A stretch of 64,000 bases of DNA from a virus (taxonomy: Duplodnaviria > Caudoviricetes): positions 32,001 through 96,000 of the IMG/VR virus record IMGVR_UViG_3300021387_000090; one strand, written 5' to 3'. A model generated the notes under the pieces. It was not told where the DNA came from, did not search any database, and was given only the letters and a program-made list of their open reading frames with translations. Within the stretch, counting starts at the first letter, position 1. The number at the start of each line of letters is the position of its first letter. Positions 3,950 to 63,455 of this stretch are shown one piece after another. Position numbers and translations under genes: made by a program.

Positions 3950-6631
3950 ATGTCTCAAAAGGTATTAATTACTAAACAAAAATTAGATGATTTAGCGAAC
4001 GCCATCGCTTATAAAAGTGGAAGATCAGGTGCAATGACTATAAATGAAATGAGTAATGTCGTTGCAGATATTAAAACTAATCCAGAGTTACAAGAAAAAA
4101 GCGTATCACCTACTGAATCAACTATTATAGTAACTGCTGATAATGGATATGATGGATTATCAGAAGTCACAGTGAATGGAATAAATTCAGAATATGTTGG
4201 AAGTAACATACCTAGAAGAACTATTACTGATTTAAATGGAGAATATGAAAATAGCGAATATCATGTAAATGTGCCAAATGGATATTATGCAAACGATCTT
4301 GCTTATGAAGTGGCATCTGGTGTTGAAGGAACGCCTAGTGCTATAAAAGGGGAAGTAGATAATCATATTATAACTATTACGCCCTCTGTAACTAATACCG
4401 AAGGATATATTTTAGGAGGGACAAAGAGTGGTAGTGCTGTAACTGTTAGTGTAGATGAATTGGTATCTGGCACTCAAACTGTTAATGAAAATGGAACGTA
4501 TGATGTAATCTCTTTGGCTGAAATGGTTGTAGATGTTGAAGCAAGCAGCGATGAAGCTTCAATTGTTGATGGAATAGCAATGAAAGCTTATAGTAATGCA
4601 ATTGGAAGAAGTGCGAGTTTTGTTGCTGATGAAGTATTTATGTCTAATAGTATAATAACTATTGCTAGTTTTCCTTTAGCATCTGATATTGGAGTGAGCG
4701 CATTTTGGAGTTGTCCAAATTTACAAAAAGTGGATTGCGCCTCTGTTATGCATATTAGAAGTAGTGCTTTTGAATATTGTTCGAACTTGAGTACAATAAA
4801 TGTTCCAAATGTTCGTTATATAGATCAAGAATGCTTCTATGGTTGTTCTTTATTATCCGAAATAAGCTTTCCAAATTTGTTAAGTGCTGGGGGTAATGCT
4901 TTTGGATATTGTAATAACTTATCATCTGTAAACCTTCCAATGTTAACCAGTGCGGAAGCAGGACTATTTAATGGATGTAGGAATTTAAGTAATTTAACTC
5001 TTCCTGCACTAACCACAATACCATCATATTTTGCAAATTATAATTCGGGGCTTATGTCCATCTCATTCCCCGCAGCTTCATATATTGGAGCAAGTGCCTT
5101 TACTCAAGATAGCAATTTAACAAACATAAATATACCTATTACTACTTATATTGGTTCGTCTGCGTTCGCATATTGTTCAAAATTAACAGAAATAAATTTT
5201 TCAATGGTCACACAAATAGGAGAAGCCGCATTTTATCAATGTTCTGCATTAACAACTGCTAGTTTACCGATTGTTGAAACAATTGAAACAGGTGCTTTTA
5301 GTGCTTGTTATCAATTGTCAAACATTTATATGCCTTTGGTAAATTATATTGGTGATTATGCTTTTGCTAACTGTATGCAATTAACATCTTTTAACGGCCC
5401 CCAAGTTTCAACTATTAGAGATTTTGCTTTTGCGGGTTGTTCCAATTTAACGAGTGTTAATCTTCCAAATGTTTCGGGAATACCCAGTAGTTGTTTTCAA
5501 CAATGTTCTAAGTTGGAAACGGTGAATTTATCTACGGGTTACGGTATAGGGGATTATGCATTTGCTGGGTGTCGAAGTTTAACTTCTATATTTGCTCCGA
5601 ATTTAGCATATATTGGAAGTTGGGCATTTCGAGATTGTATTAACTTATCAGTTGCTGATTTTTCATCAGTTACTCAAATTTCCAGTTATGCATTTATGTA
5701 TTGTAATAATTTAACCACTGTTAGTTTTCCTCTTTTAAGTGAATTGAAATCAAGTGTTTTTGCTGATTGTTATAATTTAACAAATATAAATTTACCAAAC
5801 CTTGAATCAATTGGAGATCGTGCTTTTAGTGGTTGCTCTTCATTAAAAAATGTGTCATTTCCTTCTGTATCATATGTAGGCATTGCTGCTTTTGGTTCGT
5901 GCTTGTCTCTAGTTAGTGTAAATCTTCCTGTAGCTACTACAATTAGCAATGCAGCCTTTAATGGGTGCCGAAATTTAACAACGGTAAGCTTGCCCATGGT
6001 TACGGCGCTTGGTTCCAAAGTGTTTCAAGGTTGCTCTAATTTGTCTACGTTGTCTTTCCCGGCTCTTACGACAATTAGTGGTAATACATTCATAGGAAAT
6101 CAAGATATTGTTAATCTGGACTTTTCGATAGTTACAACAATTTCTAGTTATGCTTTTCAGGGATGTACAAAATTATCAAAGATAGTTGCACCTCTTTTAA
6201 CACTAATTGGGTCATTTGGTTTTAGTAACTGTATTAATTTAAACGATCTATCTTTCCCGGCATTAACAACTATTAGTGCAAGTGCTTTTGCTTATTGTTT
6301 TGCACTTAGTAATGTAAATTTCCCCAAAGTTACGACTATTTATAATAATGCCTTTGAACATTGTTCAAGTTTAACAGAGATTAGTCTTCCCACTGTTCAG
6401 TATATTGGAACAGGCGTTTTTAGTCAATGTCAGAATCTTATTTCAGTAAATTTAGTAGGTATATCTTCAGTTCCTACTCTTGCTAATATTAATGTTTTTC
6501 AATCTACGCCAATGAGTATATCTATATATACAAGTGGTTATGGTAGTATTTATGTTCCAGCAAGTTTATATTCTAATTTCCTGACCGCTCAATATTGGTC
6601 ATATTATAGCAACAGAATGGTTTCTGTTTAA
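3950..6631 (+). CDS. BspA-type leucine-rich repeat (LRR_5) protein
   Basis: More than 20 repeats of about 22 aa matching IGxxAFxxCxxLxxVxLP; C-terminal IYVPASLYSNF..W cap. Confidence 0.9.
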   Translation: MSQKVLITKQKLDDLANAIAYKSGRSGAMTINEMSNVVADIKTNPELQEKSVSPTESTIIVTADNGYDGLSEVTVNGINSEYVGSNIPRRTITDLNGEYENSEYHVNVPNGYYANDLAYEVASGVEGTPSAIKGEVDNHIITITPSVTNTEGYILGGTKSGSAVTVSVDELVSGTQTVNENGTYDVISLAEMVVDVEASSDEASIVDGIAMKAYSNAIGRSASFVADEVFMSNSIITIASFPLASDIGVSAFWSCPNLQKVDCASVMHIRSSAFEYCSNLSTINVPNVRYIDQECFYGCSLLSEISFPNLLSAGGNAFGYCNNLSSVNLPMLTSAEAGLFNGCRNLSNLTLPALTTIPSYFANYNSGLMSISFPAASYIGASAFTQDSNLTNINIPITTYIGSSAFAYCSKLTEINFSMVTQIGEAAFYQCSALTTASLPIVETIETGAFSACYQLSNIYMPLVNYIGDYAFANCMQLTSFNGPQVSTIRDFAFAGCSNLTSVNLPNVSGIPSSCFQQCSKLETVNLSTGYGIGDYAFAGCRSLTSIFAPNLAYIGSWAFRDCINLSVADFSSVTQISSYAFMYCNNLTTVSFPLLSELKSSVFADCYNLTNINLPNLESIGDRAFSGCSSLKNVSFPSVSYVGIAAFGSCLSLVSVNLPVATTISNAAFNGCRNLTTVSLPMVTALGSKVFQGCSNLSTLSFPALTTISGNTFIGNQDIVNLDFSIVTTISSYAFQGCTKLSKIVAPLLTLIGSFGFSNCINLNDLSFPALTTISASAFAYCFALSNVNFPKVTTIYNNAFEHCSSLTEISLPTVQYIGTGVFSQCQNLISVNLVGISSVPTLANINVFQSTPMSISIYTSGYGSIYVPASLYSNFLTAQYWSYYSNRMVSV

Positions 6632-10600: not shown

Positions 10601-13600
10601 ACTTTATTGCTGATGCTAGAAATGCTGAAGAAATGGTAAATCGTTATGATCGTAACCAAATTTATGATGAGAATAACAATTTGACCCCTGATAGCGTTGC
10701 AGAAGCTTGTCCTCAATTAAGAGTGATAAAAATTGATTGTCCTCATTTTACTAACGATAAAAAAGATAAAGTAGCAGACACTACCATCGAGTATATCTAT
10801 CGTGATGGTGATCCTGTATTGGATAACTGGATTGCTACTGGTGCTTCGCACAGCGGACAGGGGACAACTAGTAATGAGTATGCTGCTGCTGGACGAAATT
10901 TGGATCTGATAATGAATACAGATACTACGGTGATTACACTTGGTGATGGAACTACAACTGCAAGTAAGATTAGTTTAACTCGTACTTCAGTGCCTGTTAA
11001 CTACTTAAATGTGAAGGTGAATATTGCCAGTTCTGAAAATGCTAACAATGCTTTGTTACAAAAGAGATACGACAGATACTTACCATATGTAAGTGAGCCT
11101 AAAAAAGCAGATCCTAAAGTAAAGAACACGATGGAGTTTTATAACTGTGTAATCTTTGTGCGTGAGAACGATTCTGATCTTACTACTCATAGAGAATATG
11201 ATGATACTGATTGGCATTTTTATGCTATTGGCAATGTTGGTGATTCTAAGAAGACAGATAAAACTCGTGTTGTAGACTCTTCTGACCCTAAAGAATTCTG
11301 TGTGGAAATAATGGATAATACTTTCCCGAATTCGACATTCCCCGGTGGTACAGAAGCCTTAGCAAACTTGGACGCTGACACCTTTAGTGAAAAGACTGGT
11401 GAAACTTATGGTCTTCGGTATGAGTATAAGAATATAACCACCGAAGAACATGAAGCTAATCTTGAAGCTTTTAGAGATTTCTATAGATTTGTAGTTAATT
11501 CAACAGATCAGGAATTCCATGATAATCTTGGAGATTATTTCGTGTTAGATTCTGCTCTTTATTTCTATCTTTATACTCTGCAATGGACAATGATTGATAA
11601 CCGTGCAAAGAACACTTTCTGGTGGAGACATAAATGTGAAGATGGTGAATATAGATTTGAATTCTGGGGATACGATTTTGACTCGGGCCTCGGAATCAAC
11701 AATTCGGGCGAGATGACAATGCCTTATGGCAGAGAAGATATGGATTATCGAACAGAAGGAGATCCTAATTCTGGGTATATCTTTAACGCCGCTGAATCCA
11801 CATTCTTCTGTCGTGTGAGAGATTTGTTCCAGACTGAACTACAAGCCATGTATCTGACTTGTGAATCAAACAATGCTTGGAATCCCGAAAGTATGATTCA
11901 AGAGTTTGATAATTGGCAAGCACAATTCCCTGAAGAATTATGGAGATTAGATATTACCAATAAATATATCAATTCTTATCTTGGAAAGGGTAGATTCTAC
12001 TCTGCTACACCTCGTTTCTTAACTACCATGATGAATGGACGTAAGAAATATCATAGACGGCAGTTTATCAGGGATCAAGTAATGTATATGGCAACTAAAT
12101 GGTATGGTAGTTATGCTACGTCTGATCAGATCATGTTTAGATGTAACACACCCACATCTGCTGTTGTTTCTCCTGATTATACTCTGCATTTGACACCTTA
12201 CGCAGATATGTATTTGTCTGTAATGTTTGGTGCGACTTCTAGAAAACAGGTTCGTGCAAAAGCTGGCATTGAATATACTATTACTTGTCCTCTTACAACG
12301 ATGGATGATACAGCGGTGCTGATTTATGGCGCCTCTAGGATTCAATCTGTGGGTGATTTAAGTACTTGTTATGTACATGATAATGATTTCTCAAAAGCCG
12401 TAAAGCTTCGTTCTTTGACAATTGGTAGTACTATAGAGGGATACAACAATGTATTCTTGACTACTCTTAATTTAGGTAATAATGCGTTATTACAAACTCT
12501 TGACATTAGAAATAATCCTAATCTGACAGGAACTTTAAATCTGTCTGGATGCCCTAGCCTAGAAACTTTACAGGCTACTGGAACAAGTTTGACTGGTGTT
12601 ATATTTGCAGATGGTGGTAAAATTAAGACAGCTTATTTACCTGCAATAAATTCTTTGACAATAAAGAATTTGTTATATTTAACCACTTTGTCATTAGCGG
12701 GGTATAATAATTTGTCAAGGATTGTGGCAGAAAATTGCCCTACTGTTGATCTAATTGCAATTATTACGAACGCCACTGCATTAACAAGATTAAGGGCTAC
12801 ACAGGTTGATTGGACAGTAGTTGACAATTGGTTGAAACCATTATTGAATCTTTCAGGCGTGGATGCGTCTGGTTATGATACAACGAAATCTGTATTAACT
12901 GGTACTGCTCATTTAGCGGCTACAGATACCTTTACTCTGAATGAATATAACACACAATGGCCTGATTTGGTTATTGATGTACCACCTTCAGCAGTATTAC
13001 AAGCCTATACCGTAACCTTTAAGAATCCTGAAATAGATCCTGAAAAAAAGGTTCTTGATGTACAACATATTATTGAAGGTGAGAATGCTGTAGATCCTAT
13101 TACTCGTGCGGTTAATCCTATTGCTATTCCCACTATGGTTGTTTATCTGGAAGATGGAAAAACCATTGCTAAAGACTATACATTTACTGGATGGGATTTA
13201 GCATTAACCAATATTAGGAGTAATCGTACAATTACAGCAGTTTATGATGAATCAGAACATCAATATACTGTACGGTTTTTAGATTTGGATAATACTGTAT
13301 TAGAAACTATTCAAGCACCTTACGGCTCTAGTGTTGAATATTCTGGTACAACGCCTGTATACACCAAGCAAGAGTCCTCTTATGTATATAATTTATTTGA
13401 GGGTTGGGATAGTTATCCTATTGTAACAGGAGACATTGATATTAAGGCAAAATATCAAACTTATCGTTATAACGAAGAAGAATTGAATAATATGAGTTTA
13501 TCACAAATGACCCCTACTCAAATTTATTCCATCCTTCAGAACAAACGGAGTGGTGCATTACCAATAACCATTAATTCTAAAGATAGTATTAGTTTTAAGG

Positions 13601-33914: not shown

Positions 33915-36811
33915 TGCATAATTCCGTCCTTTGAGAGAACATTCATCCATTTACGCTTATCAAATTCTTTACGTCTAATTTTTTGATAACCTGAAACAGG
34001 TGTATAGAAACCGACTACGCGACTATAGGTGTCGGCAATAGATTTGCCACATACTGGGCAAGTCTTTTCACTAATAAAAGCGTGACCCTCTTCACATACA
34101 CTAATTTTGGTTGTAAATGCAAAGTAGATCACCCCTTGAGAAGCTACATAATTAAGCATCTCCCATGCAGTTTCTTCATTAGGGAATCTATTTTCAATAT
34201 CAATATGGGCGATACATCCACCCCCACATTTAGCATCAAATAAAGATCCTAATCTACATTTTTCTTGAATAGTGCATTTTTCCATTAAGGGGATCCATTG
34301 ATTGGAATAAATAAAGTATTTATCATTTTCAAACAATAAATTATCTGCCTGACAAATTACTCCCGCACAATTTTCAGCAGGAATCATTTCAATATTAAAA
34401 GTAAAATCACATTCAAAATTATCTTTTACTTCATTCATTGTATCTAAGATTTGTGTGGTAAATTCAACAGCTTCGTCTGAATAAGATTTACATCCAAACT
34501 CATCTGTATTAATTAAACCGAACATATCCATTACTTCATACATTCCAATACCGCCAATGGTACAGAACTGTTTATCTAATTCAACGGCCCCATCTTGATA
34601 ATTAGGAAGTAATCCCTTTTCAATATTTCGTTTTAAAATATAACGCATAGAAGACAACGCTTTGCAATCAAGAAGAACCCTCTTCTTTAGAATATCAATA
34701 TACTTCTTTTTATTAAGGTCACTCTCATATGCAATTCTTACTAAATTAATTGTACTTACTCTGCAAGACCCTACAGATAACGCAGTACCACCAATACTAT
34801 TAATAAAAGCATCGAGTTTTGTTGTATCACTAAGTAATCTACAACAATTACTTAATACACCAACATTGTCACTAACAAAGAAATTAGAATCTGACCACTT
34901 AATATTATGTGCTGAACACCATTTGGCAAAATCTTCATCAACGAATTTACCATTTTGGAACAATAAGCTATATGTTAATCCTTTATGTTCATCATGAGTC
35001 GTTAATTCATGACCGTTTATAACAAACCGCTCTATGTCACCATAGAGAGCAGACTATATCATATTCTTTAATTCTATTACCGATTAAAGAACCCCAGCAC
35101 TTCCATCCACTTGGATGTACTCTACTCAGTTATTTACTTAATATTTCTATTAAGAAATCTTTTCGATAGTCGTTGCGCTTTCCCATCTATATGGGCTTAG
35201 TTCATGATTGTCTGTATAATGTATTTTCCAATGGCAGTTATGGCAAAGAACTACCAAATTGGATTCGTCCATCAGATCTTTATTATTAACTATTTGATCA
35301 TAAACGGAATTAATATCTCCATCATAATCATTTTTAATAAAATCTTCAAAAAGTAATTTAAAAGGCTTAATATGATGAGTTTCTAAATTTCCTCCTCTTT
35401 TACCACAACATTGACAAGTATAATTTTTTTCACGAATCAAACGTTTTGATATTGTTTTAAAAATTCCTCTTGCTACACGTTTTTCATCTTCGTAACCTTT
35501 ATAATTAGGATTATTATCTCCTGTAAATCGACCTATTAAAGATTCACTAATTTTATTTCTTTGTTCAATATCATCTATTTTCCCGTGTCTATCCTTTATT
35601 CCTTGTCTATTAAGAAGAATAGTAACATCTGATCTTGAGACACCTAACCTCTCAGCTATTTCGTAATCATATAAACCTTGATTATGTAGTTCCAAAACTT
35701 GCTGCCTACGATTCATTTCATATTTATGTAAGCCTAATTGATTAAGTTTTTTACCAACCGTACTTTTTGTATATCCTGTAATATCACTTATTTCTTGATA
35801 TGATAAATTTTGATTAAATAAATCAATTAATACCTCATCTGCCACTTTTTTAATTTTTATTACCTATCTTTCTTTGCCATTTTATAAATACAGACTTCCC
35901 ATGAATTCACTGGGTTTTCATAATAAATCACTTTATTATGCCGCTATATAATTAACGGGATATGTAAACATCTGAATACTTCTAGTTTCATCTACCACTC
36001 TCATGAATTCTTTTTGCGCTTCAATTAAATCTTCAATATGATCTATCGCCATTTCCCCGTCAGGAAAAACGATTCCACCAAAAAGAGATTCAAGGTATGG
36101 TCTGTCAAAAATTGAAATATTTGTAAAAGCACTCTGATCAATTCTCAAGAACGGTTGGTTTAGTCTAAAAATTAATTTTTGGCACTGCTGTCTCCAGTAA
36201 TATTTCGGATCCTTAATATAATATCCAGTTTGAACATCTTTATACCAAAACCACCAGCCCCAAATTAACACATTAGGCATACCCACAGCGCCAGATTGCC
36301 TATTTGAGAGGAATGAAACGAATTCAATAACGTCATCTATATATGTCGTTAAATGTTTAGGCGGCTCATTGTTGTAATTGTTTAAAAAGAATAATCCTTC
36401 GGTTGCTAATCTCGTAAAATCATCTGCCCAACAATAGGGAAAATAACTAGCTGTTGTACTATCATTTAAATAAAACGCTCGACTAAACTCTGCTTCAAGC
36501 CATTGTTTGGCTGTGCGTAATCCCCATTGTTTTTTAATCGTTGAGAAAATTTTATTTAACCCAAATAATTTATCTTCACTCTTACCTTTTTCAGTCATAA
36601 AGCTACGAATATCTTTATTTCTTGCATTAGCATTTGGATCAATACTCTTATCTGCAAGCGCACCTTTATCAACAAAGTTATCAATAAATTCAGAAAAATC
36701 TAATTGACTAGGATGAAGACCATTAATATATTCAAAGTCTTCACCATATTTTTTCTTTAAATCCTCTAAACATCTTTCGAAATCTTTTGTAAGTTTTAAT
36801 TCAATATCCAT
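33911..36811 (-). CDS. nrdD: Class III anaerobic ribonucleotide reductase, two exons: join(36811..35955, 34979..33911), 641 aa
   Basis: Splicing restores MFTYPV-LTYSLLFQ in frame. SNCCRL, IPAE, CPVCG zinc site and YSRVVGFY glycyl-radical loop present. Confidence 0.9.
34980..35954 (-). mobile_element. Group I intron (975 nt) in nrdD
   Basis: Exon CCGU pairs with intron GCGG (P1, U-G at the splice site). Terminal omega-G at 34980. GCAACGACTA and GATATAGTC P7 elements. P9-like CTCTATG-GTGA-CATAGAG. Confidence 0.9.
35150..35845 (-). CDS. Intron-encoded HNH homing endonuclease with N-terminal HTH domains
   Basis: Two HTH-like segments, GDNNPNYKG, CQCCG, ETHHIKP, NLVVLCHNCH; ORF end (ESATTIE) overlaps the intron core. 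Confidence 0.9.
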   Translation of the reverse strand: MADEVLIDLFNQNLSYQEISDITGYTKSTVGKKLNQLGLHKYEMNRRQQVLELHNQGLYDYEIAERLGVSRSDVTILLNRQGIKDRHGKIDDIEQRNKISESLIGRFTGDNNPNYKGYEDEKRVARGIFKTISKRLIREKNYTCQCCGKRGGNLETHHIKPFKLLFEDFIKNDYDGDINSVYDQIVNNKDLMDESNLVVLCHNCHWKIHYTDNHELSPYRWESATTIEKIS

Positions 36812-55358: not shown

Positions 55359-56489
55359 TTATTTAATACTCTCTCGCTCTTTCCCAGTAGAGTAAAGAGT
55401 TTGAATTGAATTTAAATTATCATACATATAATCAGGAACAGCAATCTCATTCTTATGAGTAATCACAACTTTAAATTCTCGATCAAATGAATCTTTTCTT
55501 AATCTCTCTAAGAAATTATAATCCATTTGTCCATATCTAATTGTTCCCTGAAATTCATTAGGAATATTTGTTTCATCATAAAGCCCTATACTTAATTGCT
55601 TATCTTCTTTAAAATTAGGATCAATACCATGCCTTGTCAAATAAGTTCTTGTAACATAATAAGGTTCTGTATAAAAACCAAGTTTTTGTTCAAGCACTCG
55701 GACATTATCGAGTCCTGTGTTTGATGGAGTAGTATGGACGTTATCAGGATCGTCATTTAATAACAACCCTTGACCGTTTTCAAAAATCACTTCATCGTAT
55801 TTTTTAATGATCTCTGCATCGCACCACATAGTATGATTTAACATAAAATAGCAATCTTGAAGATATTTTTCAATAATAGCATCATTCTCTGTATAAAGGA
55901 TTTTACTCCAGTTTAAAATAACTTGATTGGATATTTCTTGATTTTCTTTATATCGTTTAAAATTATAATCAAAATAATTCTTTCTAATTTTAATCCAATC
56001 ACAAAACGACTTAATATCACCCCATGTGCAAACAGAAAAATCATTATATAATTTTACTGTTTGCCAAATACCCATGCCACAACTACCGTGTCGCTTTTCA
56101 CCACGACTTTCTTCTAGCATTTGATTTAAATACATCTCATACGGAGTGGTAATGCGACATTTTTTATCAATATAAACGTGAGAATAAAATCCCATTTTAT
56201 TTAATTCTTTATATTCCTGTACAAAAACCATAGGGTTTATAATAAAGAATTCTGAAAGATAAGTATCTGCACCTATAAAAGTACCAGACCCAAAATGACG
56301 AAAAGCATGTTTGATACCTTCAACTAAGGAGACGGTATGAGAGCGTTGTGGGCCACCATTATTTAAAACTACTAATGTCTTATAACCTTTTTGAATTGCT
56401 TGATTAGCAAGATAATCTGTAACTAACCCTTTTCCTTCGTCACCCGCATTCATCCCTACTACAACCTTTGATCTCACATCTATTCCCAT
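55359..56489 (-). CDS. Divergent adenylosuccinate synthetase (PurA-like)
   Basis: GDEGKG P-loop, HTV, HGSCGMG, FENGQGLLL, TPSNTG, RTYLTRHG, TN..N.FQG..RYG. Confidence 0.85.
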   Translation of the reverse strand: MGIDVRSKVVVGMNAGDEGKGLVTDYLANQAIQKGYKTLVVLNNGGPQRSHTVSLVEGIKHAFRHFGSGTFIGADTYLSEFFIINPMVFVQEYKELNKMGFYSHVYIDKKCRITTPYEMYLNQMLEESRGEKRHGSCGMGIWQTVKLYNDFSVCTWGDIKSFCDWIKIRKNYFDYNFKRYKENQEISNQVILNWSKILYTENDAIIEKYLQDCYFMLNHTMWCDAEIIKKYDEVIFENGQGLLLNDDPDNVHTTPSNTGLDNVRVLEQKLGFYTEPYYVTRTYLTRHGIDPNFKEDKQLSIGLYDETNIPNEFQGTIRYGQMDYNFLERLRKDSFDREFKVVITHKNEIAVPDYMYDNLNSIQTLYSTGKERESIK

Positions 56490-61041: not shown

Positions 61042-61083
61042 TCTCCATTATAAATCTCCTTTCTTAAGTTAGTCATGACATAA

Positions 61084-61158
61084 TACCCAGAATCGGATTT
61101 GAACCGATAAGCACGATATTTTGAGTATCGCAGGTCTGCCAGTTGCCGTCATCTGGGC
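61084..61158 (-). tRNA. tRNA-Leu(CAA) with short variable loop
   Basis: GCCCAGA/TCTGGGT acceptor, Leu-type D loop, CGATA-CTCAAAA-TATCG anticodon arm, 5-nt variable loop, ATCGG-TTCAAAT-CCGAT T arm. Confidence 0.85.
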
Positions 61159-61162
61159 AGGT

Positions 61163-61263
61163 GAGAAATAGAAATAAGGCCGTGTTAAAAAGGTATTGTT
61201 AGCGCTCCAATCGGGGTCGATTAAATGGTAAACCCGTTTCCCCATACCTCATCTCTATTTCTC
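61163..61263 (-). ncRNA. Unknown RNA closed by a 17-bp stem
   Basis: GAGAAATAGAGATGAGG pairs with CCTTATTTCTATTTCTC; two G-U pairs work only on the minus strand. Confidence 0.55.
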
Positions 61264-61279
61264 TTTGGTAGCTAACCAG

Positions 61280-61418
61280 TCGGAGTGATAGGATTCGAAC
61301 CTATAACACACAGTTCCTTGTTCCTATGAAGTAAGTGTTATACTGCTTCATTTTACATGAGAATAATAATAACACTCAAATATATTATACTGTTGCTCTA
61401 CCGTTAAGCTACACTCCG
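61280..61418 (-). ncRNA. tRNA-Pro-like scaffold with a 74-nt insert in place of the anticodon loop
   Basis: CGGAGTG/CACTCCG-A acceptor, intact D and T arms; ACAGT/ACTGT stem encloses 61315-61388. Confidence 0.8.
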
Positions 61419-61576
61419 TGGTGAGGTTAAAGTCCCTCAACTACACATATTACCAAGTTGGCCTATTGTCTTACATCCCTGTTCACCATTAATGTACATT
61501 AAAATATTCTATGACTACTAACGAAGCAAGTTTTTCAATACTGCGGATGGTATTCATTTGTTCTCGACCGCTATCA

Positions 61577-61649
61577 TCGGAATAGAGAGACTTGAACTCT
61601 CGCCTCATCGGTTAAAAGCCGATTACTCTACCAACTGAGTTATATTCCG
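61577..61649 (-). tRNA. tRNA-Lys(TTT)
   Basis: Full cloverleaf; ATCGG-CTTTTAA-CCGAT anticodon arm. Confidence 0.93.
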
Positions 61650-61658
61650 AAAATAAAT

Positions 61659-61681
61659 TATGGGTAAGGATTTGTACCTTA
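61659..61681 (-). other. Orphan T-arm plus acceptor 3' fragment
   Basis: TAAGG-TACAAAT-CCTTA-CCCATA; 19 of 20 nt identical to the T arm at 62192-62211. Confidence 0.6.
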
Positions 61682-61685
61682 TTAT

Positions 61686-61997
61686 TCATCCAGACTTATC
61701 TGTAAGTTCAAAAAATTTATAACCATGATACAAAAAATAAATATAATCCCAATTCGTATCATAATTATCATTACCGCACCAGTCTTCTCTGTTAATTTCT
61801 ATATCCAAAATTTTCGCAAGTTTTTCAAGATTAGTTATCTGAATTGCTTTTTCGTGAAATGTGTCAGCAACTGTAATTGATTCAAAGGATTTTCTTCTCA
61901 TTTTTTCGGCTTTAATCTGCATATTCAACCATTTATATGCGTTGTCCATTTCTCTCATTTTCATTCTTTCTCCAAATAATTTTTTGGTTAAACTCAT
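61686..61997 (-). CDS. Hypothetical protein inside the RNA island
   Basis: 103-aa ORF on the same strand as the island; no strong RBS seen. Confidence 0.55.
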   Translation of the reverse strand: MSLTKKLFGERMKMREMDNAYKWLNMQIKAEKMRRKSFESITVADTFHEKAIQITNLEKLAKILDIEINREDWCGNDNYDTNWDYIYFLYHGYKFFELTDKSG

Positions 61998-62105
61998 AAT
62001 AAATACAGGAATGAACTAACATTTGCAGTCTTCGCTAACATACCAGTCAATGTGTACTCATGAGGGGCATACCATTTTCCACTTGAGGCCCATATTCACT
62101 TATAT

Positions 62106-62182
62106 ACCGCACCGAAAGTTATCTACGGCTTTTACACTCGTAACTTTAATCCGTCGATTGTGCCCACGGCCATCCGTGCGGT
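62106..62182 (-). ncRNA. Unknown three-way-junction RNA
   Basis: Stems ACCGCAC/GTGCGGT, CCGT/ACGG and AAAGTTA/TAACTTT. Confidence 0.55.
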
Positions 62183-62185
62183 TTA

Positions 62186-62283
62186 TTATGCGGGTAAGGA
62201 TTTGCACCTTACATGAGCAAGTTATTTACCGTAATTTCACATGCTCTTACGGACTATGTGTCTATCTATTCCACCACCGCATA
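62186..62283 (-). ncRNA. tRNA-like scaffold carrying an H-type pseudoknot instead of an anticodon arm
   Basis: TATGCGG/CCGCATA acceptor, Leu-type D arm, GTAAGG-TGCAAAT-CCTTAC T arm; insert pairs CCGTAA/TTACGG and GAGCA/TGCTC. Confidence 0.75.
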
Positions 62284-62285
62284 AC

Positions 62286-62333
62286 GTAGTCTTTCCTACT
62301 GTCAGATCCCTCCACTTTGCACAAGTGAAGATC
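62286..62333 (-). ncRNA. Hairpin plus TGACA-GTAG-GAAAGA-CTAC, resembling the 3' end of c4 antisense RNAs
   Basis: Sequence seen directly; family resemblance recalled from the C4 consensus, not searched. Confidence 0.45.
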
Positions 62334-62532
62334 GGAACGACAGGAATCGAACCCGCAATCAAGTTATCAACTTGTAAGCCGTTTCAAACCTTTATTTTGA
62401 TACGAGGAATTAGTATCATTATCACGCTACCCTCGAATGGTTACAAGTCCTACGCTACCTTTTATAAGAACAAAGGGATGGTGATTAGCCAATTACATCT
62501 TCGTCCATGTCTTCCTATTCCATCACGTTCCG
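62332..62532 (-). ncRNA. tRNA-like scaffold with ~150-nt structured insert
   Basis: CGGAACG/CGTTCCG-A acceptor, ATGG-AATAGGAAGA-CAT D arm, GCGGG-TTCGATT-CCTGT T arm; insert 62357-62506. Confidence 0.75.
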
Positions 62533-62591
62533 AAGTGAGAGATGGGTAATTACATCCCTTATTGGTAGTCTCTCATTCAGTTTTCTACCAC

Positions 62592-62663
62592 AGCTGAAGG
62601 TGGGACTCGAACCCATGACCCTTCGCTTGCAAGGCGAATGTTCTCCCACTGAACTACAAGCCC
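62592..62663 (-). pseudogene. Chimeric tRNA-Ala(TGC) with largely unpaired acceptor stem
   Basis: D, anticodon (CTTGCAA) and T loops are normal, but 5' GGGCTTG does not form a proper stem with 3' CTTCAGC. Confidence 0.75.
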
Positions 62664-62668
62664 ATAAA

Positions 62669-62703
62669 AGTAGTTTTTTTATAGAAGATGCTACTAAACT
62701 TCT
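62669..62703 (-). ncRNA. preQ1-I riboswitch-like pseudoknot aptamer (variant)
   Basis: AGAAG-TTTAGTAGCAT-CTTCT-ATAAAAAAA-CTACT: 5-bp P1, A-rich L3, P2 AGTAG/CTACT. Confidence 0.55.
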
Positions 62704-62706
62704 TGT

Positions 62707-62770
62707 TATCCTTGTTGCACTACCTATAATTTTAAATGCCCAATGGACCATACCTCCATTCGATAGGATA
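62707..62770 (-). ncRNA. Unknown multibranch RNA
   Basis: TATCCT/AGGATA closing stem; AATGGA-GGTATGG-TCCATT hairpin. Confidence 0.4.
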
Positions 62771-62773
62771 AAA

Positions 62774-62847
62774 TACTTCTAAAAGGATTTGAACCTTTAT
62801 TTCTATTGATAAAATAGAAAGTCTAACCGAACTTAACTTATAGAAGT
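62774..62847 (-). tRNA. Atypical tRNA-Ile(TAT)-like gene
   Basis: ACTTCTA/TAGAAGT acceptor and normal T arm; loop TTTATCA gives anticodon TAT, but C37 and a 3-nt variable loop are non-canonical. Confidence 0.55.
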
Positions 62848-62854
62848 ACCAAAT

Positions 62855-62941
62855 AATAAAAATCTTACTCAACGCCTAGACATTATTAAGGGGTCTGCGT
62901 TGCCTTCTTCCTTATCCTCATCCACTCCTCAGATTTTTATT
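62855..62941 (-). ncRNA. RNA with an 11-bp closing stem and a single-stranded tract of four GGA motifs
   Basis: AATAAAAATCT/AGATTTTTATT encloses GAGGA-GTGGA-TGAGGA-TAAGGA and a CAACGC/GCGTTG hairpin. Confidence 0.5.
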
Positions 62942-63074
62942 AAATAAAATAATTAATTAATTAATTGAAGAGAAATCACACCTTTTTCTTCATATGGGGG
63001 TGTCTATTTAACATATAGATACGTTATCAGATATATCATTTCACTGATAAAAAGATTCACTTTGGGGAATCTAG

Positions 63075-63455
63075 TACGGGTAGTGGGACTTGAACCCACA
63101 CTCTCTTGCGAGAAACGGATTTTCTTACTACACTATGTCACCATAGCCATCTTAATGGATGTTGTAGTCTGGACTATGTTTTTACCATATCATTTCTGAC
63201 TTAGGTAGATGGTATATAGTCTCTACACATTTATAGATAGGGTTCGAGCGTCAATGATAACATGTTCATTCCGTCAGTCTCTCTTTTAAAAATAAACGAA
63301 CTAAAACGATTACTTCCCTATCTAATTTAGCTCGGCGTTCTCTTAGCCATTCACCGAATTAGCCATCTCCACTTATATCGTTTCCGATATAAGGCTCTCT
63401 TTTAATGTCTGCTAAGACGAAAGTCCGTTGCGTCTGCCTATTCCGCCATACCCGC
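63075..63455 (-). tRNA. tRNA-Leu(TAA) split by an intron: exons 63455..63421 and 63123..63075
   Basis: Joined exons give a canonical class II cloverleaf with ACGGA-CTT^AAAA-TCCGT and a long variable arm. Confidence 0.92.
63124..63420 (-). mobile_element. Group I intron (297 nt, no ORF) in the tRNA-Leu(TAA) anticodon
   Basis: Inserted after U34, ends in G; AATTCGGTGAA, GTAGAGACTA and CATAGTCC core elements; CTATG-GTGA-CATAG P9-like hairpin. Confidence 0.88.

What the first reader, a model, noticed from the sequence alone, without database searches (positions are those of the whole stretch)
61084..63455. RNA island: tRNAs and tRNA scaffolds punctuating a string of structured non-coding cargos
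Seen: in ~2.4 kb on one strand there are 5 tRNA or tRNA-derived genes and 3 elements that keep intact acceptor, D and T arms but replace the anticodon region with unrelated folds (about 45, 74 and 150 nt). Nearly every spacer also closes into its own structure (61163, 62106, 62286, 62536, 62669, 62707, 62855). Known: RNase P and RNase Z read the acceptor stem and elbow rather than the anticodon, which is why engineered tRNA scaffolds stabilise inserted RNAs. Inference: the phage uses natural tRNA scaffolds and tRNA punctuation to release a kit of small functional RNAs (decoys for anticodon nucleases or other defence sensors, protein sponges, aptamers) from one transcript. This is the best candidate for an undescribed system in the window.
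Basis: partly seen in the sequence, partly recalled or inferred. Interest (0 to 1): 0.9.

Follow-up and report, generated by a model that had tools for sequence, protein, structure and literature searches.

The report
Phage tRNA-shaped RNA gene cluster
This 2.4-kb stretch of a 155-kb phage is a same-strand cluster of tRNA genes and non-decoding tRNA-shaped RNAs; one of them carries the phage's Ro60-binding (Y RNA) module where the anticodon loop should be, another belongs to a large unannotated phage RNA family, and none has a tested function.

Summary
The core observation holds. All elements lie on the minus strand between 63455 and 61083:
- two ordinary tRNAs (Lys-UUU, Ile-UAU);
- a tRNA-Leu(UAA) split by a 297-nt group I intron at position 34/35;
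- two aberrant tRNA-like genes (GCA with an unpaired acceptor stem; CAA with a poor D arm);
- three RNAs that keep acceptor, D and T arms but have no anticodon arm.

What I could add:
- The 140-nt element (61418-61279) carries, in permuted order, the helix-loop-helix module found in the Y-like RNAs beside this phage's Ro60 gene. The same design recurs in three other Ro60-encoding phage lineages, with compensatory changes. I read it as a circularly permuted, tRNA-ended Y RNA.
- The 98-nt element (62283-62186) belongs to a very large phage family built on a tRNA-Leu frame with a UGCAAAU T loop and variable cargo. Covariation is strong, and the family is absent from Rfam. This scan had already noted it on other DNA.
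- The 204-nt element and a 100-nt hairpin have no relatives.
- Only two of nine spacer stretches fold better than shuffled sequence.

Expression, processing and Ro60 binding are inferred, not shown. Verdict: a new variant of known kinds (Y RNA tRNA mimics, T4 stable RNAs).

The parts
63074..63455 (-). tRNA-Leu(UAA) gene interrupted by a group I intron. Exon 1 is 63455-63421, the intron is 63420-63124 (297 nt), exon 2 is 63123-63074.
   Evidence: ARAGORN intron mode places the intron between anticodon positions 34 and 35. RF00028 matches the full model over 63430-63151 at 27.8 bits, E 3e-5, including the AGACUA/UAGUC core. Relatives G001 and G006 carry intronless tRNA-Leu(UAA). Huge phage LR756501 has a related 205-nt intron at the same site.
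62773..62848 (-). tRNA-Ile(UAU), an ordinary tRNA with 25% G+C.
   Evidence: ARAGORN; Rfam tRNA 46.7 bits.
62592..62661 (-). tRNA-like gene with D, anticodon (GCA) and T arms, but an acceptor stem that does not pair.
   Evidence: Rfam tRNA 45.4 bits with non-standard pairs flagged in the acceptor. Not called by ARAGORN.
62330..62533 (-). 204-nt tRNA-framed RNA with no relatives. It has an 8-bp acceptor, a Leu/Ser-type D arm, a variable-arm-like hairpin, a normal T arm and A73. About 113-150 nt replace the anticodon arm, and GGTAGCGT occurs twice.
   Evidence: ARAGORN intron mode; sequence; constrained fold. No homologue in related phages or cultured phages. No tmRNA call.
62186..62283 (-). 98-nt member of the tRNA-Leu-frame / UGCAAAU T-loop family. 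It has a 7-bp acceptor, D arm GTG-GAATAGATAGA-CAC, 44 nt of cargo, a 6-bp T stem and A73.
   Evidence: Orthologue in G001 (L006:2251-2378) with a compensatory acceptor change and a different, longer cargo. Family covariation.
62106..62176 (-). Conserved hairpin element closed by ACCGCAC/GTGCGGT.
   Evidence: Fold z -2.4. The closing stem and 5' part are conserved in G001 while the interior differs by indels.
62050..62105 (-). Highly conserved block of unknown nature, nearly identical to G001.
   Evidence: Alignment A2.
61686..61997 (-). 103-aa ORF with no family, lying inside the RNA cluster.
   Evidence: the ORF listing. No Pfam or PHROG match.
61655..61680 (-). Isolated T-arm plus acceptor-3' fragment resembling the 3' end of the 98-nt element (loop TACAAAT).
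   Evidence: Sequence comparison.
61576..61650 (-). tRNA-Lys(UUU), an ordinary tRNA.
   Evidence: ARAGORN; Rfam tRNA 70.8 bits.
61279..61418 (-). tRNA-ended Y-like RNA: a complete acceptor, D arm, T arm and 5-bp 'anticodon' stem (ACAGT/ACTGT) enclosing 74 nt.
   Evidence: Rfam tRNA 51.5 bits with 72 nt skipped; fold z -2.3; orthologue L006:8140-8271.
61328..61377 (-). Ro60-binding-type module inside the 140-nt element, in permuted order: helix-2 3' strand, TTATTC, helix 1 (TCAT / loop GTAAA / ATGA), AGCAG, helix-2 5' strand, TTACTTC.
   Evidence: The same motifs sit in normal order in the Y-like RNAs beside the Ro60 gene. Module parse. Cognate strands pair far better than non-cognate ones.
61163..61263 (-). 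About 100-nt RNA hairpin with a closing stem of about 18 bp, and no relatives.
   Evidence: MFE -40.6 kcal/mol, z -5.1, 0 of 200 shuffles as good. No homologue found.
61083..61159 (-). tRNA-Leu(CAA)-like gene with an aberrant D arm.
   Evidence: ARAGORN only. The Rfam tRNA model gives no match up to E 10.

Best explanation
The region is a same-strand tRNA and small-RNA gene cluster of a complete 154.7-kb phage. It probably belongs functionally with the phage's Ro60 (TROVE) locus, which lies about 5-9 kb away in this genome and is contiguous with the equivalent RNA genes in the closest relative.

Contents:
- Decoding tRNAs: Lys-UUU, Ile-UAU, and Leu-UAA once its group I intron is removed.
- Aberrant tRNA derivatives.
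- Three non-decoding RNAs built on a tRNA frame.

Inferred mechanism: the cluster is transcribed as one or a few precursors. Host RNase P and 3'-end enzymes cut at every acceptor stem. The tRNA frame gives each product a stable L-shaped body.

The 140-nt product is a Y RNA turned inside out. In YrlA-type Y RNAs the two RNA ends form the Ro60-binding helix and the tRNA-like acceptor stem is closed by a loop. Here the Ro60-binding helix is closed by a 5-nt loop and sits where the anticodon loop would be, and the ends lie in a normal 7-bp acceptor stem with A73. It would bind the phage Ro60 ring through the module and present a tRNA body with free, CCA-addable ends to whatever partner recognises tRNA shape.

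The 98-nt product is one of a very large family of phage RNAs that keep the upper half of tRNA-Leu and swap the lower half. Its partner is unknown.

Shown: the gene anatomy, the motif identity with the Ro60-adjacent RNAs, conservation and covariation, and the intron assignment.
Inferred: transcription, processing, Ro60 binding and any role in infection.
For: Ro60 gene:
- Pfam TROVE 24-26 bits, above the cut-off.
- Matches the Thermus phage Ro60 structures 9KOP and 9L5Y, E 6e-11.
- phrog_850, E 3e-43.

Y-like RNAs next to it:
- They read 5' NNYGA-AGCGG-helix-TTACTTC-[tRNA-like part]-helix'-TTATTC-TCRNN.
- Two of them match the published GNCGAAN0-1G motif (PMC4201824).

The 140-nt element:
- It has the same motifs in permuted order within a full tRNA body.
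- Across 21 distinct modules from 8 phage contigs, cognate strands pair at 7.2 of 8 positions (helix 2) and 3.9 of 4 (helix 1), against 4.4 and 1.8 for non-cognate strands. None of 10,000 partner shuffles reached the observed totals.

tRNA-ended versions elsewhere:
- G001, whose Ro60 is 76% identical, has one 2.5 kb downstream of Ro60.
- Two further phage contigs, L274 and L281, also have them, and both records encode Ro60 at 53% identity.
- Between this phage and G001 the acceptor, T and anticodon stems are all different yet fully paired, while the module motifs are nearly invariant.

Relative G006 (Ro60 64% identical):
- It has the unpermuted YrlA order instead (T arm, loop-closed acceptor, D arm) with the same module.
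- Those elements give sub-threshold hits of 26-30 bits to Rfam YrlA.

Published precedent: M. smegmatis YrlA is cut by RNase P in its acceptor loop and receives CCA (PMC4201824).

The 98-nt family:
- A pattern that fixed only the D loop and T loop found 110 distinct elements; 104 of them have 6-7 of 7 acceptor pairs, with 73 distinct acceptor strands.
- On 59 sequences, 97.3% of cells pair, 14 of 16 pairs change on both sides, and the covariation score is 0.678 against 0.194 for shuffles (0 of 500 as high) and at most 0.141 when partners are slid.

Transcription: no terminator-like site on the minus strand inside the island.
Against:
- Ro60 binding is inferred only from motif and neighbourhood. 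In the 140-nt element the motif reads UGAAGCAG rather than CGAAG.
- That element lies about 8.7 kb from the Ro60 gene, outside the 4-kb neighbourhood used to define YrlA.
- The Rfam YrlA model does not match anything in this genome above 16 bits.
- The pairing test is partly circular, because each partner was chosen as the best-pairing candidate at the expected place.
- tRNA-ended versions were found in only four lineages, two of them related to each other.
- The 204-nt element, the 100-nt hairpin, the GCA element without an acceptor stem and the CAA element have no comparative support and could be decaying.
- Promoter-like sites do not exceed chance, so a single transcript is not shown.
Confidence: 0.6

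Rival explanations
1. The odd elements are decaying tRNA pseudogenes and recombination scars in a fast-evolving tRNA island, with no function of their own.
For: - Several pieces look broken: the GCA element has no acceptor pairing, and the CAA element fails the Rfam model.
- There is an isolated T-arm fragment at 61680-61655 next to an ORF without family.
- The 204-nt element and the long hairpin have no homologue anywhere searched.
- Island content differs greatly between relatives.
Against: - The 98-nt and 140-nt elements keep every frame helix perfectly paired. Orthologues and paralogues show compensatory changes alongside invariant motifs, which decay would not give.
- The stretch from the 3' end of the 98-nt element through the adjacent hairpin is the best-conserved DNA in the island: 83% over about 150 nt, where the flanks gave only a few short matches of 22-48 nt in tRNA arms.
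Confidence: 0.15
2. The inserts are introns. After removal, the three frames become ordinary decoding tRNAs.
For: This is true for tRNA-Leu(UAA), where the group I model matches and relatives carry an intronless allele. ARAGORN's intron mode can force anticodons (AAG, UGA) onto two of the frames.
Against: - The inserts of 44, 74 and 113-150 nt are too short for a group I intron and give no match to any Rfam intron or ribozyme family.
- Removing them does not leave a plausible 7-nt loop with U33.
- In the 98-nt family there is no anticodon stem at all, and the T loop has G at position 55.
- The 74-nt insert is a conserved module shared with free-standing Y-like RNAs.
Confidence: 0.04
3. One reading: tRNAs and scaffolds punctuate a chain in which nearly every spacer is itself a functional structured RNA, released by RNase P and RNase Z.
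For: Two spacers are structured beyond shuffles (61263-61163, z -5.1; 62176-62106, z -2.4), and one of them is conserved. All elements share one strand with no internal terminator.
Against: Seven of the nine spacer stretches tested fold no better than shuffled sequence, and none of those seven is conserved in relatives. One 'spacer' holds a 103-aa ORF.
Confidence: 0.1
4. The 204-nt element is a small tmRNA-like or other trans-translation RNA.
For: The topology is similar: tRNA-like ends enclose a large internal domain.
Against: - ARAGORN's tmRNA search finds nothing.
- Pair 3-70 is G-C, not the G-U alanine identity pair.
- The D arm is complete and Leu-like.
- No Rfam tmRNA match up to E 10.
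Confidence: 0.02

Closest known systems
YrlA-type bacterial and phage Y RNAs (Rfam RF02553; Chen et al. 2014, PMC4201824)
   Same: - A Ro60-associated RNA made of a bulged Ro-binding helix with a GAAG-containing 5' strand, plus a tRNA-like domain with D and T arms and an acceptor stem.
- Encoded on the same strand as a Ro60 orthologue.
- The Ro helix occupies the anticodon-stem position.
- M. smegmatis YrlA is even opened by RNase P in its acceptor loop and receives CCA.
   Different: - Here the genetic break point is moved: the ends lie in the acceptor stem and the Ro helix is closed by a loop, so the gene reads like a tRNA with an insert.
- The motif is UGAAGCAG rather than GNCGAA.
- An invariant TTACTTC follows helix 2.
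- The Rfam model does not match.
- In this genome it lies about 8.7 kb from Ro60.
D. radiodurans Yrn1-type Y RNA (PMC4201824)
   Same: The phage's Ro60-adjacent Y-like RNAs have the Yrn1 order (D arm, anticodon-like arm, T arm), with the Ro helix at the acceptor position.
   Different: That architecture applies to the RNAs outside the window, not to the 140-nt element. The phage versions enclose near-complete tRNA cores with recognisable anticodon loops.
Bacteriophage T4 species 1 and species 2 stable RNAs (rnaC, rnaD)
   Same: - Small stable RNAs of unknown function encoded inside a phage tRNA cluster on the tRNA strand (annotation).
- rnaC ends in a T arm plus an acceptor-like 3' strand.
- rnaC repeats GAGTAGCGT twice, and the 204-nt element here repeats GGTAGCGT twice.
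   Different: There is no alignable similarity beyond that 7-mer, and the frames differ. T4 has no Leu-type D arm or UGCAAAU T loop. Homology is not established.
Unannotated tRNA-Leu-frame / UGCAAAU T-loop RNAs of phages and prophages
   Same: The 98-nt element has the family's D arm, its 6-bp T stem with UGCAAAU, the conserved ATG before the T stem, a 7-bp covarying acceptor and A73.
   Different: - Its D stem is G-U-G/C-A-C rather than GCG/CGC.
- Its cargo is among the shortest.
- Here and in G001 the family members sit in a Ro60-linked RNA island rather than upstream of the terminase genes, as in small prophages.
tRNA-Leu(UAA) group I introns (cyanobacterial / IC3 type; Rfam RF00028)
   Same: - The same host gene and the same insertion site between U34 and A35.
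- U before the 5' splice site and G at the 3' end.
- The GUAGAGACUA...CCUAAG...UAUGG core.
   Different: It scores below the Rfam gathering threshold (27.8 against 50 bits) and has about 60 nt of extra 3' hairpins. It is found in a phage.
Engineered tRNA scaffolds for recombinant RNA (established knowledge, not searched here)
   Same: A foreign fold is placed at the anticodon position of a tRNA body to gain stability and correct end processing.
   Different: These are natural, conserved genes, not constructs.

Membership tests
Y RNA (YrlA / Yrn1 class) - for the 140-nt element 61418-61279 | Encoded close to (within about 4 kb) and on the same strand as a Ro60 orthologue | tested here: inconclusive
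   Same strand, but about 8.7 kb from the Ro60 gene in this genome (genome 93279-93418 against 102127-103791). The orthologue in G001 lies 2.5 kb downstream of Ro60. All four lineages with this design encode Ro60.
Y RNA (YrlA / Yrn1 class) - for the 140-nt element | Bulged helix with the conserved 5'-strand motif GNCGAAN0-1G | tested here: inconclusive
   The element has AAUGAAGCAG: GAAG is kept, and C is replaced by U with a compensating partner. Two of the phage's Ro60-adjacent RNAs have the exact GGCGAAG / ACCGAAG.
Y RNA (YrlA / Yrn1 class) - for the 140-nt element | The 5' and 3' ends of the RNA pair to form the Ro-binding stem | tested here: not met
   Helix 1 is closed by the loop GTAAA, and the predicted ends are in the tRNA acceptor stem. 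This is the basis for calling it a permuted variant and not a member.
Y RNA (YrlA / Yrn1 class) - for the 140-nt element | tRNA-like domain with D and T arms | tested here: met
   Rfam tRNA 51.5 bits over all arms.
Y RNA (YrlA / Yrn1 class) - for the 140-nt element | Match to Rfam RF02553 at 69 bits or more | tested here: not met
   The best hit in the whole genome is 16.1 bits, at an ordinary tRNA.
Y RNA (YrlA / Yrn1 class) - for the 140-nt element | Physical binding to Ro60 | not testable with these tools
   Needs EMSA or co-immunoprecipitation.
Group I intron - for 63420-63124 | Conserved catalytic core (P3-P8, G-binding P7) recognised by RF00028 | tested here: inconclusive
   Full-length match, 27.8 bits, E 3e-5 for this search, below the 50-bit gathering score. 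The AGACUA and AUAGUC strands align.
Group I intron - for 63420-63124 | Splice-site rules and restoration of the host gene | tested here: met
   U precedes the 5' site and G ends the intron. Removal gives an 85-nt tRNA-Leu with loop CUUAAAA.
Group I intron - for 63420-63124 | Intronless alleles in relatives | tested here: met
   Intronless tRNA-Leu(UAA) in G001 and G006. Intron-bearing allele in LR756501.
Decoding tRNA - for the 98-, 140- and 204-nt elements | 5-bp anticodon stem with a 7-nt loop, U33 and an anticodon | tested here: not met
   No such arm in any of the three.
tRNA-Leu-frame / UGCAAAU T-loop phage RNA family - for 62283-62186 | D loop GGAAUAGNUAGA with a 3-bp stem, 6-bp T stem with loop UGCAAAU, 7-bp acceptor, variable cargo instead of anticodon and variable arms | tested here: met
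   Aligns in register with 58 other members. Helices are 96-99% paired, and 14 of 16 pairs covary.
tmRNA - for the 204-nt element | G3-U70 pair, tag reading frame, detection by ARAGORN or Rfam | tested here: not met
   Pair 3-70 is G-C. No tmRNA call and no Rfam match.
T4 rnaC / rnaD-like stable RNAs | Sequence or structure homology to T4 species 1 or 2 RNA | tested here: inconclusive
   Only a shared, internally repeated GTAGCGT 7-mer links rnaC and the 204-nt element. No alignment was attempted beyond inspection.

The most novel reading that the evidence does not exclude
The phage encodes Y RNAs with genuine tRNA ends, which can be cut by RNase P, tailed with CCA and possibly charged. These would couple its Ro60 ring to the machinery that handles tRNAs: defence anticodon nucleases, repair ligases, synthetases, EF-Tu or the ribosome. 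The neighbouring tRNA-Leu frames with swappable cargo would be a second, programmable set of tRNA-shaped baits or guides. Together the island and the Ro60 locus would form a counter-defence or RNA-surveillance toolkit based on tRNA mimicry. Its topological variants (Ro helix at the acceptor end, at the anticodon end with closed acceptor, at the anticodon end with open acceptor, or as a fifth arm on a complete tRNA) would be interchangeable solutions.
Probability: 0.2. Interest if true: 0.85.

Novelty: new variant of a known kind. Interest (0 to 1): 0.7.

Why it matters
Y RNAs are known to mimic tRNA, but what the tRNA-like half is for remains open (PMC4201824). Here the same Ro-binding module appears in at least three topologies in related phages, including one with real tRNA ends. 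That argues the L-shaped body with an accessible acceptor end is the functional surface. It also gives a compact set of natural variants to test with one Ro60 protein.

The second scaffold ties this island to a very large phage RNA family that is unannotated and absent from Rfam. Members occur in tractable phages of Enterococcus, Listeria, Leuconostoc, Lactobacillus and Bacillus, so its function can be tested by deletion.

In practice, tRNA finders either miss these genes or, in intron mode, report them as intron-bearing tRNAs with invented anticodons. Phage tRNA repertoires are therefore misread.

Tried and rejected
- Closer relatives through the adjacent 294-aa gene. Viral contigs gave two loci without a comparable island. 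Metagenome contigs gave five loci at 39-54% identity, one with an ordinary tRNA array at the same place and none with the odd elements.
- Homologues of the 204-nt element and of the long hairpin: none in G001, G006 or G007 or in 50,697 cultured phage records.
The three-part pattern was specific. One of its hits (L272/L283) proved to be two adjacent ordinary Y-like RNAs, not a permuted one, and was dropped.
No hit passed the helix and T-loop filter, so that scan says nothing about distribution.
- A Ro-type motif in the cargos of the tRNA-Leu-frame family: absent. TTACTTC occurs in 0 of 106 cargos and GTAGCG in 1 of 106, and no 6-mer is shared widely.
- The MAFFT pair alignment of the 140-nt element with its G001 orthologue slipped register in the acceptor and D arms. 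I compared the helices by parsing each sequence instead.
- Full-text searches for the frame sequences and for tRNA-ended Y RNAs found no description. The two Y RNA reviews are not held, so I cannot exclude a mention there.
- A tmRNA reading and an intron reading of the three scaffolds: rejected; see the rival explanations.

Full report
**What the DNA is.** The window is bases 32001-96000 of a single 154,699-bp virus record with direct terminal repeats, rated complete. The finding lies on the minus strand. It sits downstream of a small GNAT gene and upstream of replication and recombination-type genes: a Sak4-like annealing protein and a PurZ-like adenylosuccinate synthetase. Coordinates below are window coordinates, read on the minus strand from 63455 down to 63083... 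to 61083.

**Inventory.**
- ARAGORN in default mode finds three tRNAs: Leu-CAA 61159-61083, Lys-UUU 61650-61576 and Ile-UAU 62848-62773.
- The Rfam tRNA model confirms Lys (70.8 bits) and Ile (46.7 bits).
- It adds 62661-62592 (45.4 bits, anticodon loop with GCA, acceptor pairs flagged as non-standard) and 61418-61280 (51.5 bits, with 72 nt skipped inside the anticodon loop). It gives no match for the Leu-CAA call.
- With introns allowed, ARAGORN adds tRNA-Leu(UAA) 63455-63074 with a 297-nt insert after position 35, and a type-II frame 62533-62330.
- A further frame, 62283-62186, has a 7-bp acceptor, a Leu-type D arm and a 6-bp T stem with loop TGCAAAT around 44 nt of unrelated sequence.
- The statement that nearly every spacer is structured is not. 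Only 61278-61160 (z -5.1) and 62185-62100 (z -2.4) beat dinucleotide shuffles. The other seven stretches do not.

**The 297-nt insert is a group I intron.**
- Removing it restores an 85-nt tRNA-Leu with anticodon loop CUUAAAA. U precedes the 5' junction and G ends the insert.
- RF00028 matches over its full length at 27.8 bits (E 3e-5 for that search; the gathering score is 50), with the AGACUA and AUAGUC strands aligned.
- The closest relatives carry intronless tRNA-Leu(UAA) genes. A 735-kb uncultured phage has a 205-nt intron at the same site with the same core.
- This part is ordinary.

**The 140-nt element carries the phage's Ro60-binding module.** I checked it.
- The genome encodes a 554-aa TROVE protein: Pfam above the cut-off, E 6e-11 to the Thermus phage Ro60 structures 9KOP and 9L5Y, and phrog_850.
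- On the same strand around that gene lie at least five RNAs of the form NNYGA-AGCGG-(8-9 nt)-TTACTTC-[acceptor-less tRNA core]-(complement of the 8-9 nt)-TTATTC-TCRNN.
- Two of them carry the published bacterial Y RNA motif GNCGAAN0-1G (PMC4201824).
- The 74 nt inside the anticodon stem of the 140-nt element contain the same pieces in the opposite order: complement strand, TTATTC, TCAT, loop GTAAA, ATGA, AGCAG, 8-9 nt strand, TTACTTC.
- The module is thus a closed hairpin, and the RNA ends lie in a perfect 7-bp acceptor stem followed by A73.

**Is the module real?**
- I collected 21 distinct modules from eight phage contigs. Their helix strands are all different. Cognate strands pair at 7.2 of 8 and 3.9 of 4 positions, against 4.4 and 1.8 for non-cognate combinations. 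No partner shuffle out of 10,000 reached the observed totals.
- The test is partly circular, because each partner was picked as the best-pairing candidate at the expected place. The conserved single-stranded motifs and the uniform geometry do not depend on that choice.

**Is the tRNA-ended form conserved?**
- A three-part pattern found it in the closest relative G001 (Ro60 76% identical), 2.5 kb downstream of Ro60, and in two other contigs, L274 and L281. The records of both contigs also encode Ro60 at 53% identity.
- Between this phage and G001 the acceptor (CGGAGTG/CACTCCG against GGGGAGA/TCTCCCC), the T stem and the anticodon stem (ACAGT/ACTGT against TAAG/CTTA) are all replaced by other paired sequences. 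The module motifs and the 3' linker stay nearly identical.
- In L274 and L281 the module sits between the D arm and a hairpin at the anticodon-arm position. In three of the four copies (the two in L274 and one in L281) that hairpin has a normal-looking loop (CUUCUAA, CUUAAAA, CUGAAAA); in the fourth (L281a) the loop has 8 nt.

**Circular permutation.**
- Relative G006 (Ro60 64% identical) has the same module with open ends, followed by T arm, a 7-bp acceptor closed by a loop, and D arm. That is the YrlA order. Those elements give the only YrlA-model hits, at 26-30 bits, below threshold.
- Read around the circle, the order of parts in G006 and in the 140-nt element is the same; only the break point differs.
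- Chen et al. showed that M. smegmatis YrlA is opened by RNase P at exactly that acceptor position and receives CCA (PMC4201824). The phage element encodes that open-acceptor state directly.
- I found no paper describing such a form. Two reviews are not held.
- On membership, the element fails two defining features of YrlA (ends in the Ro stem; the Rfam model). I therefore file it as a variant that works like a Y RNA, not as a member.

**The 98-nt element belongs to a very large family.**
- In G001 it has an orthologue with one compensatory acceptor change and a longer, different cargo. Two further paralogues lie within 700 nt, all 1-1.7 kb upstream of Ro60.
The rows fetched held 110 distinct elements with 73 different acceptor strands; 104 of them have 6-7 of 7 acceptor pairs, and A is the discriminator in 69.
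- On 59 aligned sequences, 97.3% of cells pair, 14 of 16 pairs change on both sides, and the covariation score is 0.678. Shuffles give 0.194 (0 of 500 as high), and slid partners give at most 0.141.
- The cargos share no motif.
- No Rfam family matches members.
- Members occur, unannotated, in cultured Leuconostoc, Enterococcus, Listeria, Lactobacillus, Weissella and Bacillus phages. In small prophages they often lie upstream of the terminase genes.
- In 4 of 118 fetched loci a phrog_850 (Ro60-like) gene follows within 0.5-1.6 kb on the same strand. That is a hint of a link, not a rule.
- Earlier follow-ups of this scan reached the same description on other DNA; my counts are independent of theirs.
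- The frame keeps features that I recall as LeuRS identity elements (A73, Leu-type D loop), while G55 in the T loop departs from all normal tRNAs. Whether it is charged is unknown.

**Elements with no relatives.**
- The 204-nt element has an 8-bp acceptor, a Leu-type D arm, a variable-arm-like hairpin, a normal T arm and A73. It has no homologue anywhere I searched, so its internal fold cannot be tested.
- It repeats GGTAGCGT twice. T4 species 1 RNA, a stable RNA of unknown function in the T4 tRNA cluster, repeats GAGTAGCGT twice. I record this as unexplained.
- The 100-nt hairpin 61263-61163 is thermodynamically striking but also has no relatives.
- The hairpin at 62176-62106 and the next 56 nt are the best-conserved DNA of the island, and I cannot say why.

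**Mechanism and limits.**
- All genes share one strand, and no terminator-like site lies between them.
- RNase P and the 3'-end enzymes recognise the acceptor and T arms (established knowledge). The likeliest mechanism is therefore co-transcription followed by tRNA-type processing into stable L-shaped RNAs, one of which recruits the phage Ro60.
- None of this is shown: there are no reads, no binding data, and promoter-like sites do not exceed chance.
- I put 0.6 on this reading as a whole. I rate the anatomy and the family assignments higher, and any specific role such as decoy or repair lower.

**Verdict.** The finding is real and richer than a tRNA array, but it is not a categorically new system. 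It combines an ordinary intron-bearing tRNA, a new topological variant of the Ro60/Y RNA partnership, and a member of a large, still unannotated phage family of tRNA-framed RNAs.

Noticed in passing
window 55359-56489 (-): 376-aa protein matching phrog_1211, annotated as 2-aminoadenine-pathway (PurZ-type) adenylosuccinate synthetase, E 4e-50. The phage may replace adenine in its DNA.
   Followed up: no
window 35030-35321 (-); also genome 141622-141880 (+), outside the window: Two further sub-threshold matches to the group I intron model RF00028 (40.2 and 43.4 bits, full length), so the phage probably carries several group I introns.
   Followed up: no
L285:4900-8000 (genome 100.9-104.0 kb, minus strand), outside the window: The Ro60 (TROVE) gene is flanked by at least five Y-like RNAs whose cargo is an acceptor-less or complete tRNA core (anticodon loops of Lys, Thr and others), in the D. 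radiodurans Yrn1 order. An integrase-like gene lies just upstream.
   Followed up: partly
L274:5367-5497 and 5980-6111 (+); L281:13546-13681 and 13038-13169 (-): In two other Ro60-encoding phages the Ro module is inserted between the D arm and an anticodon-arm-position hairpin. In three of the four copies the hairpin has a normal-looking 7-nt loop (CUUCUAA, CUUAAAA, CUGAAAA), giving a five-armed tRNA; the fourth (L281:13546-13681) has an 8-nt loop.
   Followed up: partly
window 62050-62105 (-): This block is nearly identical to relative G001 and is better conserved than the RNA genes around it. It contains an 11-codon ATG-to-TGA frame whose only difference is synonymous, and there is no Shine-Dalgarno sequence.
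   Followed up: partly
window 62430-62465 (-) and L408:2409-2547 (-) (T4 rnaC): The 204-nt element repeats GGTAGCGT twice, 20 nt apart. T4 species 1 stable RNA repeats GAGTAGCGT twice. The shared 7-mer in two phage tRNA-cluster RNAs is unexplained.
   Followed up: partly
L300:2617-4113 (-), L385, L379, L344: In 4 of 118 loci holding a tRNA-Leu-frame RNA, a phrog_850 protein (the same PHROG as this phage's Ro60; Pfam DUF2828 + DUF7788 in L300) is encoded 0.5-1.6 kb downstream on the same strand.
   Followed up: partly
L006:6167-6256 (+): The closest relative encodes a 90-nt type-II tRNA with anticodon UUA, which reads the UAA stop codon (ARAGORN 'tRNA-Stop', Rfam tRNA 36.8 bits). It lies beside its Y-like RNAs. 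No counterpart is seen in this genome.
   Followed up: no
window 61655-61680 and 61686-61997 (-): A lone T-arm plus acceptor fragment resembling the 3' end of the 98-nt element follows a 103-aa ORF without family. A possible 5' partner (TATGGG) lies about 400 nt upstream. This may be a frame split by an inserted gene.
   Followed up: partly
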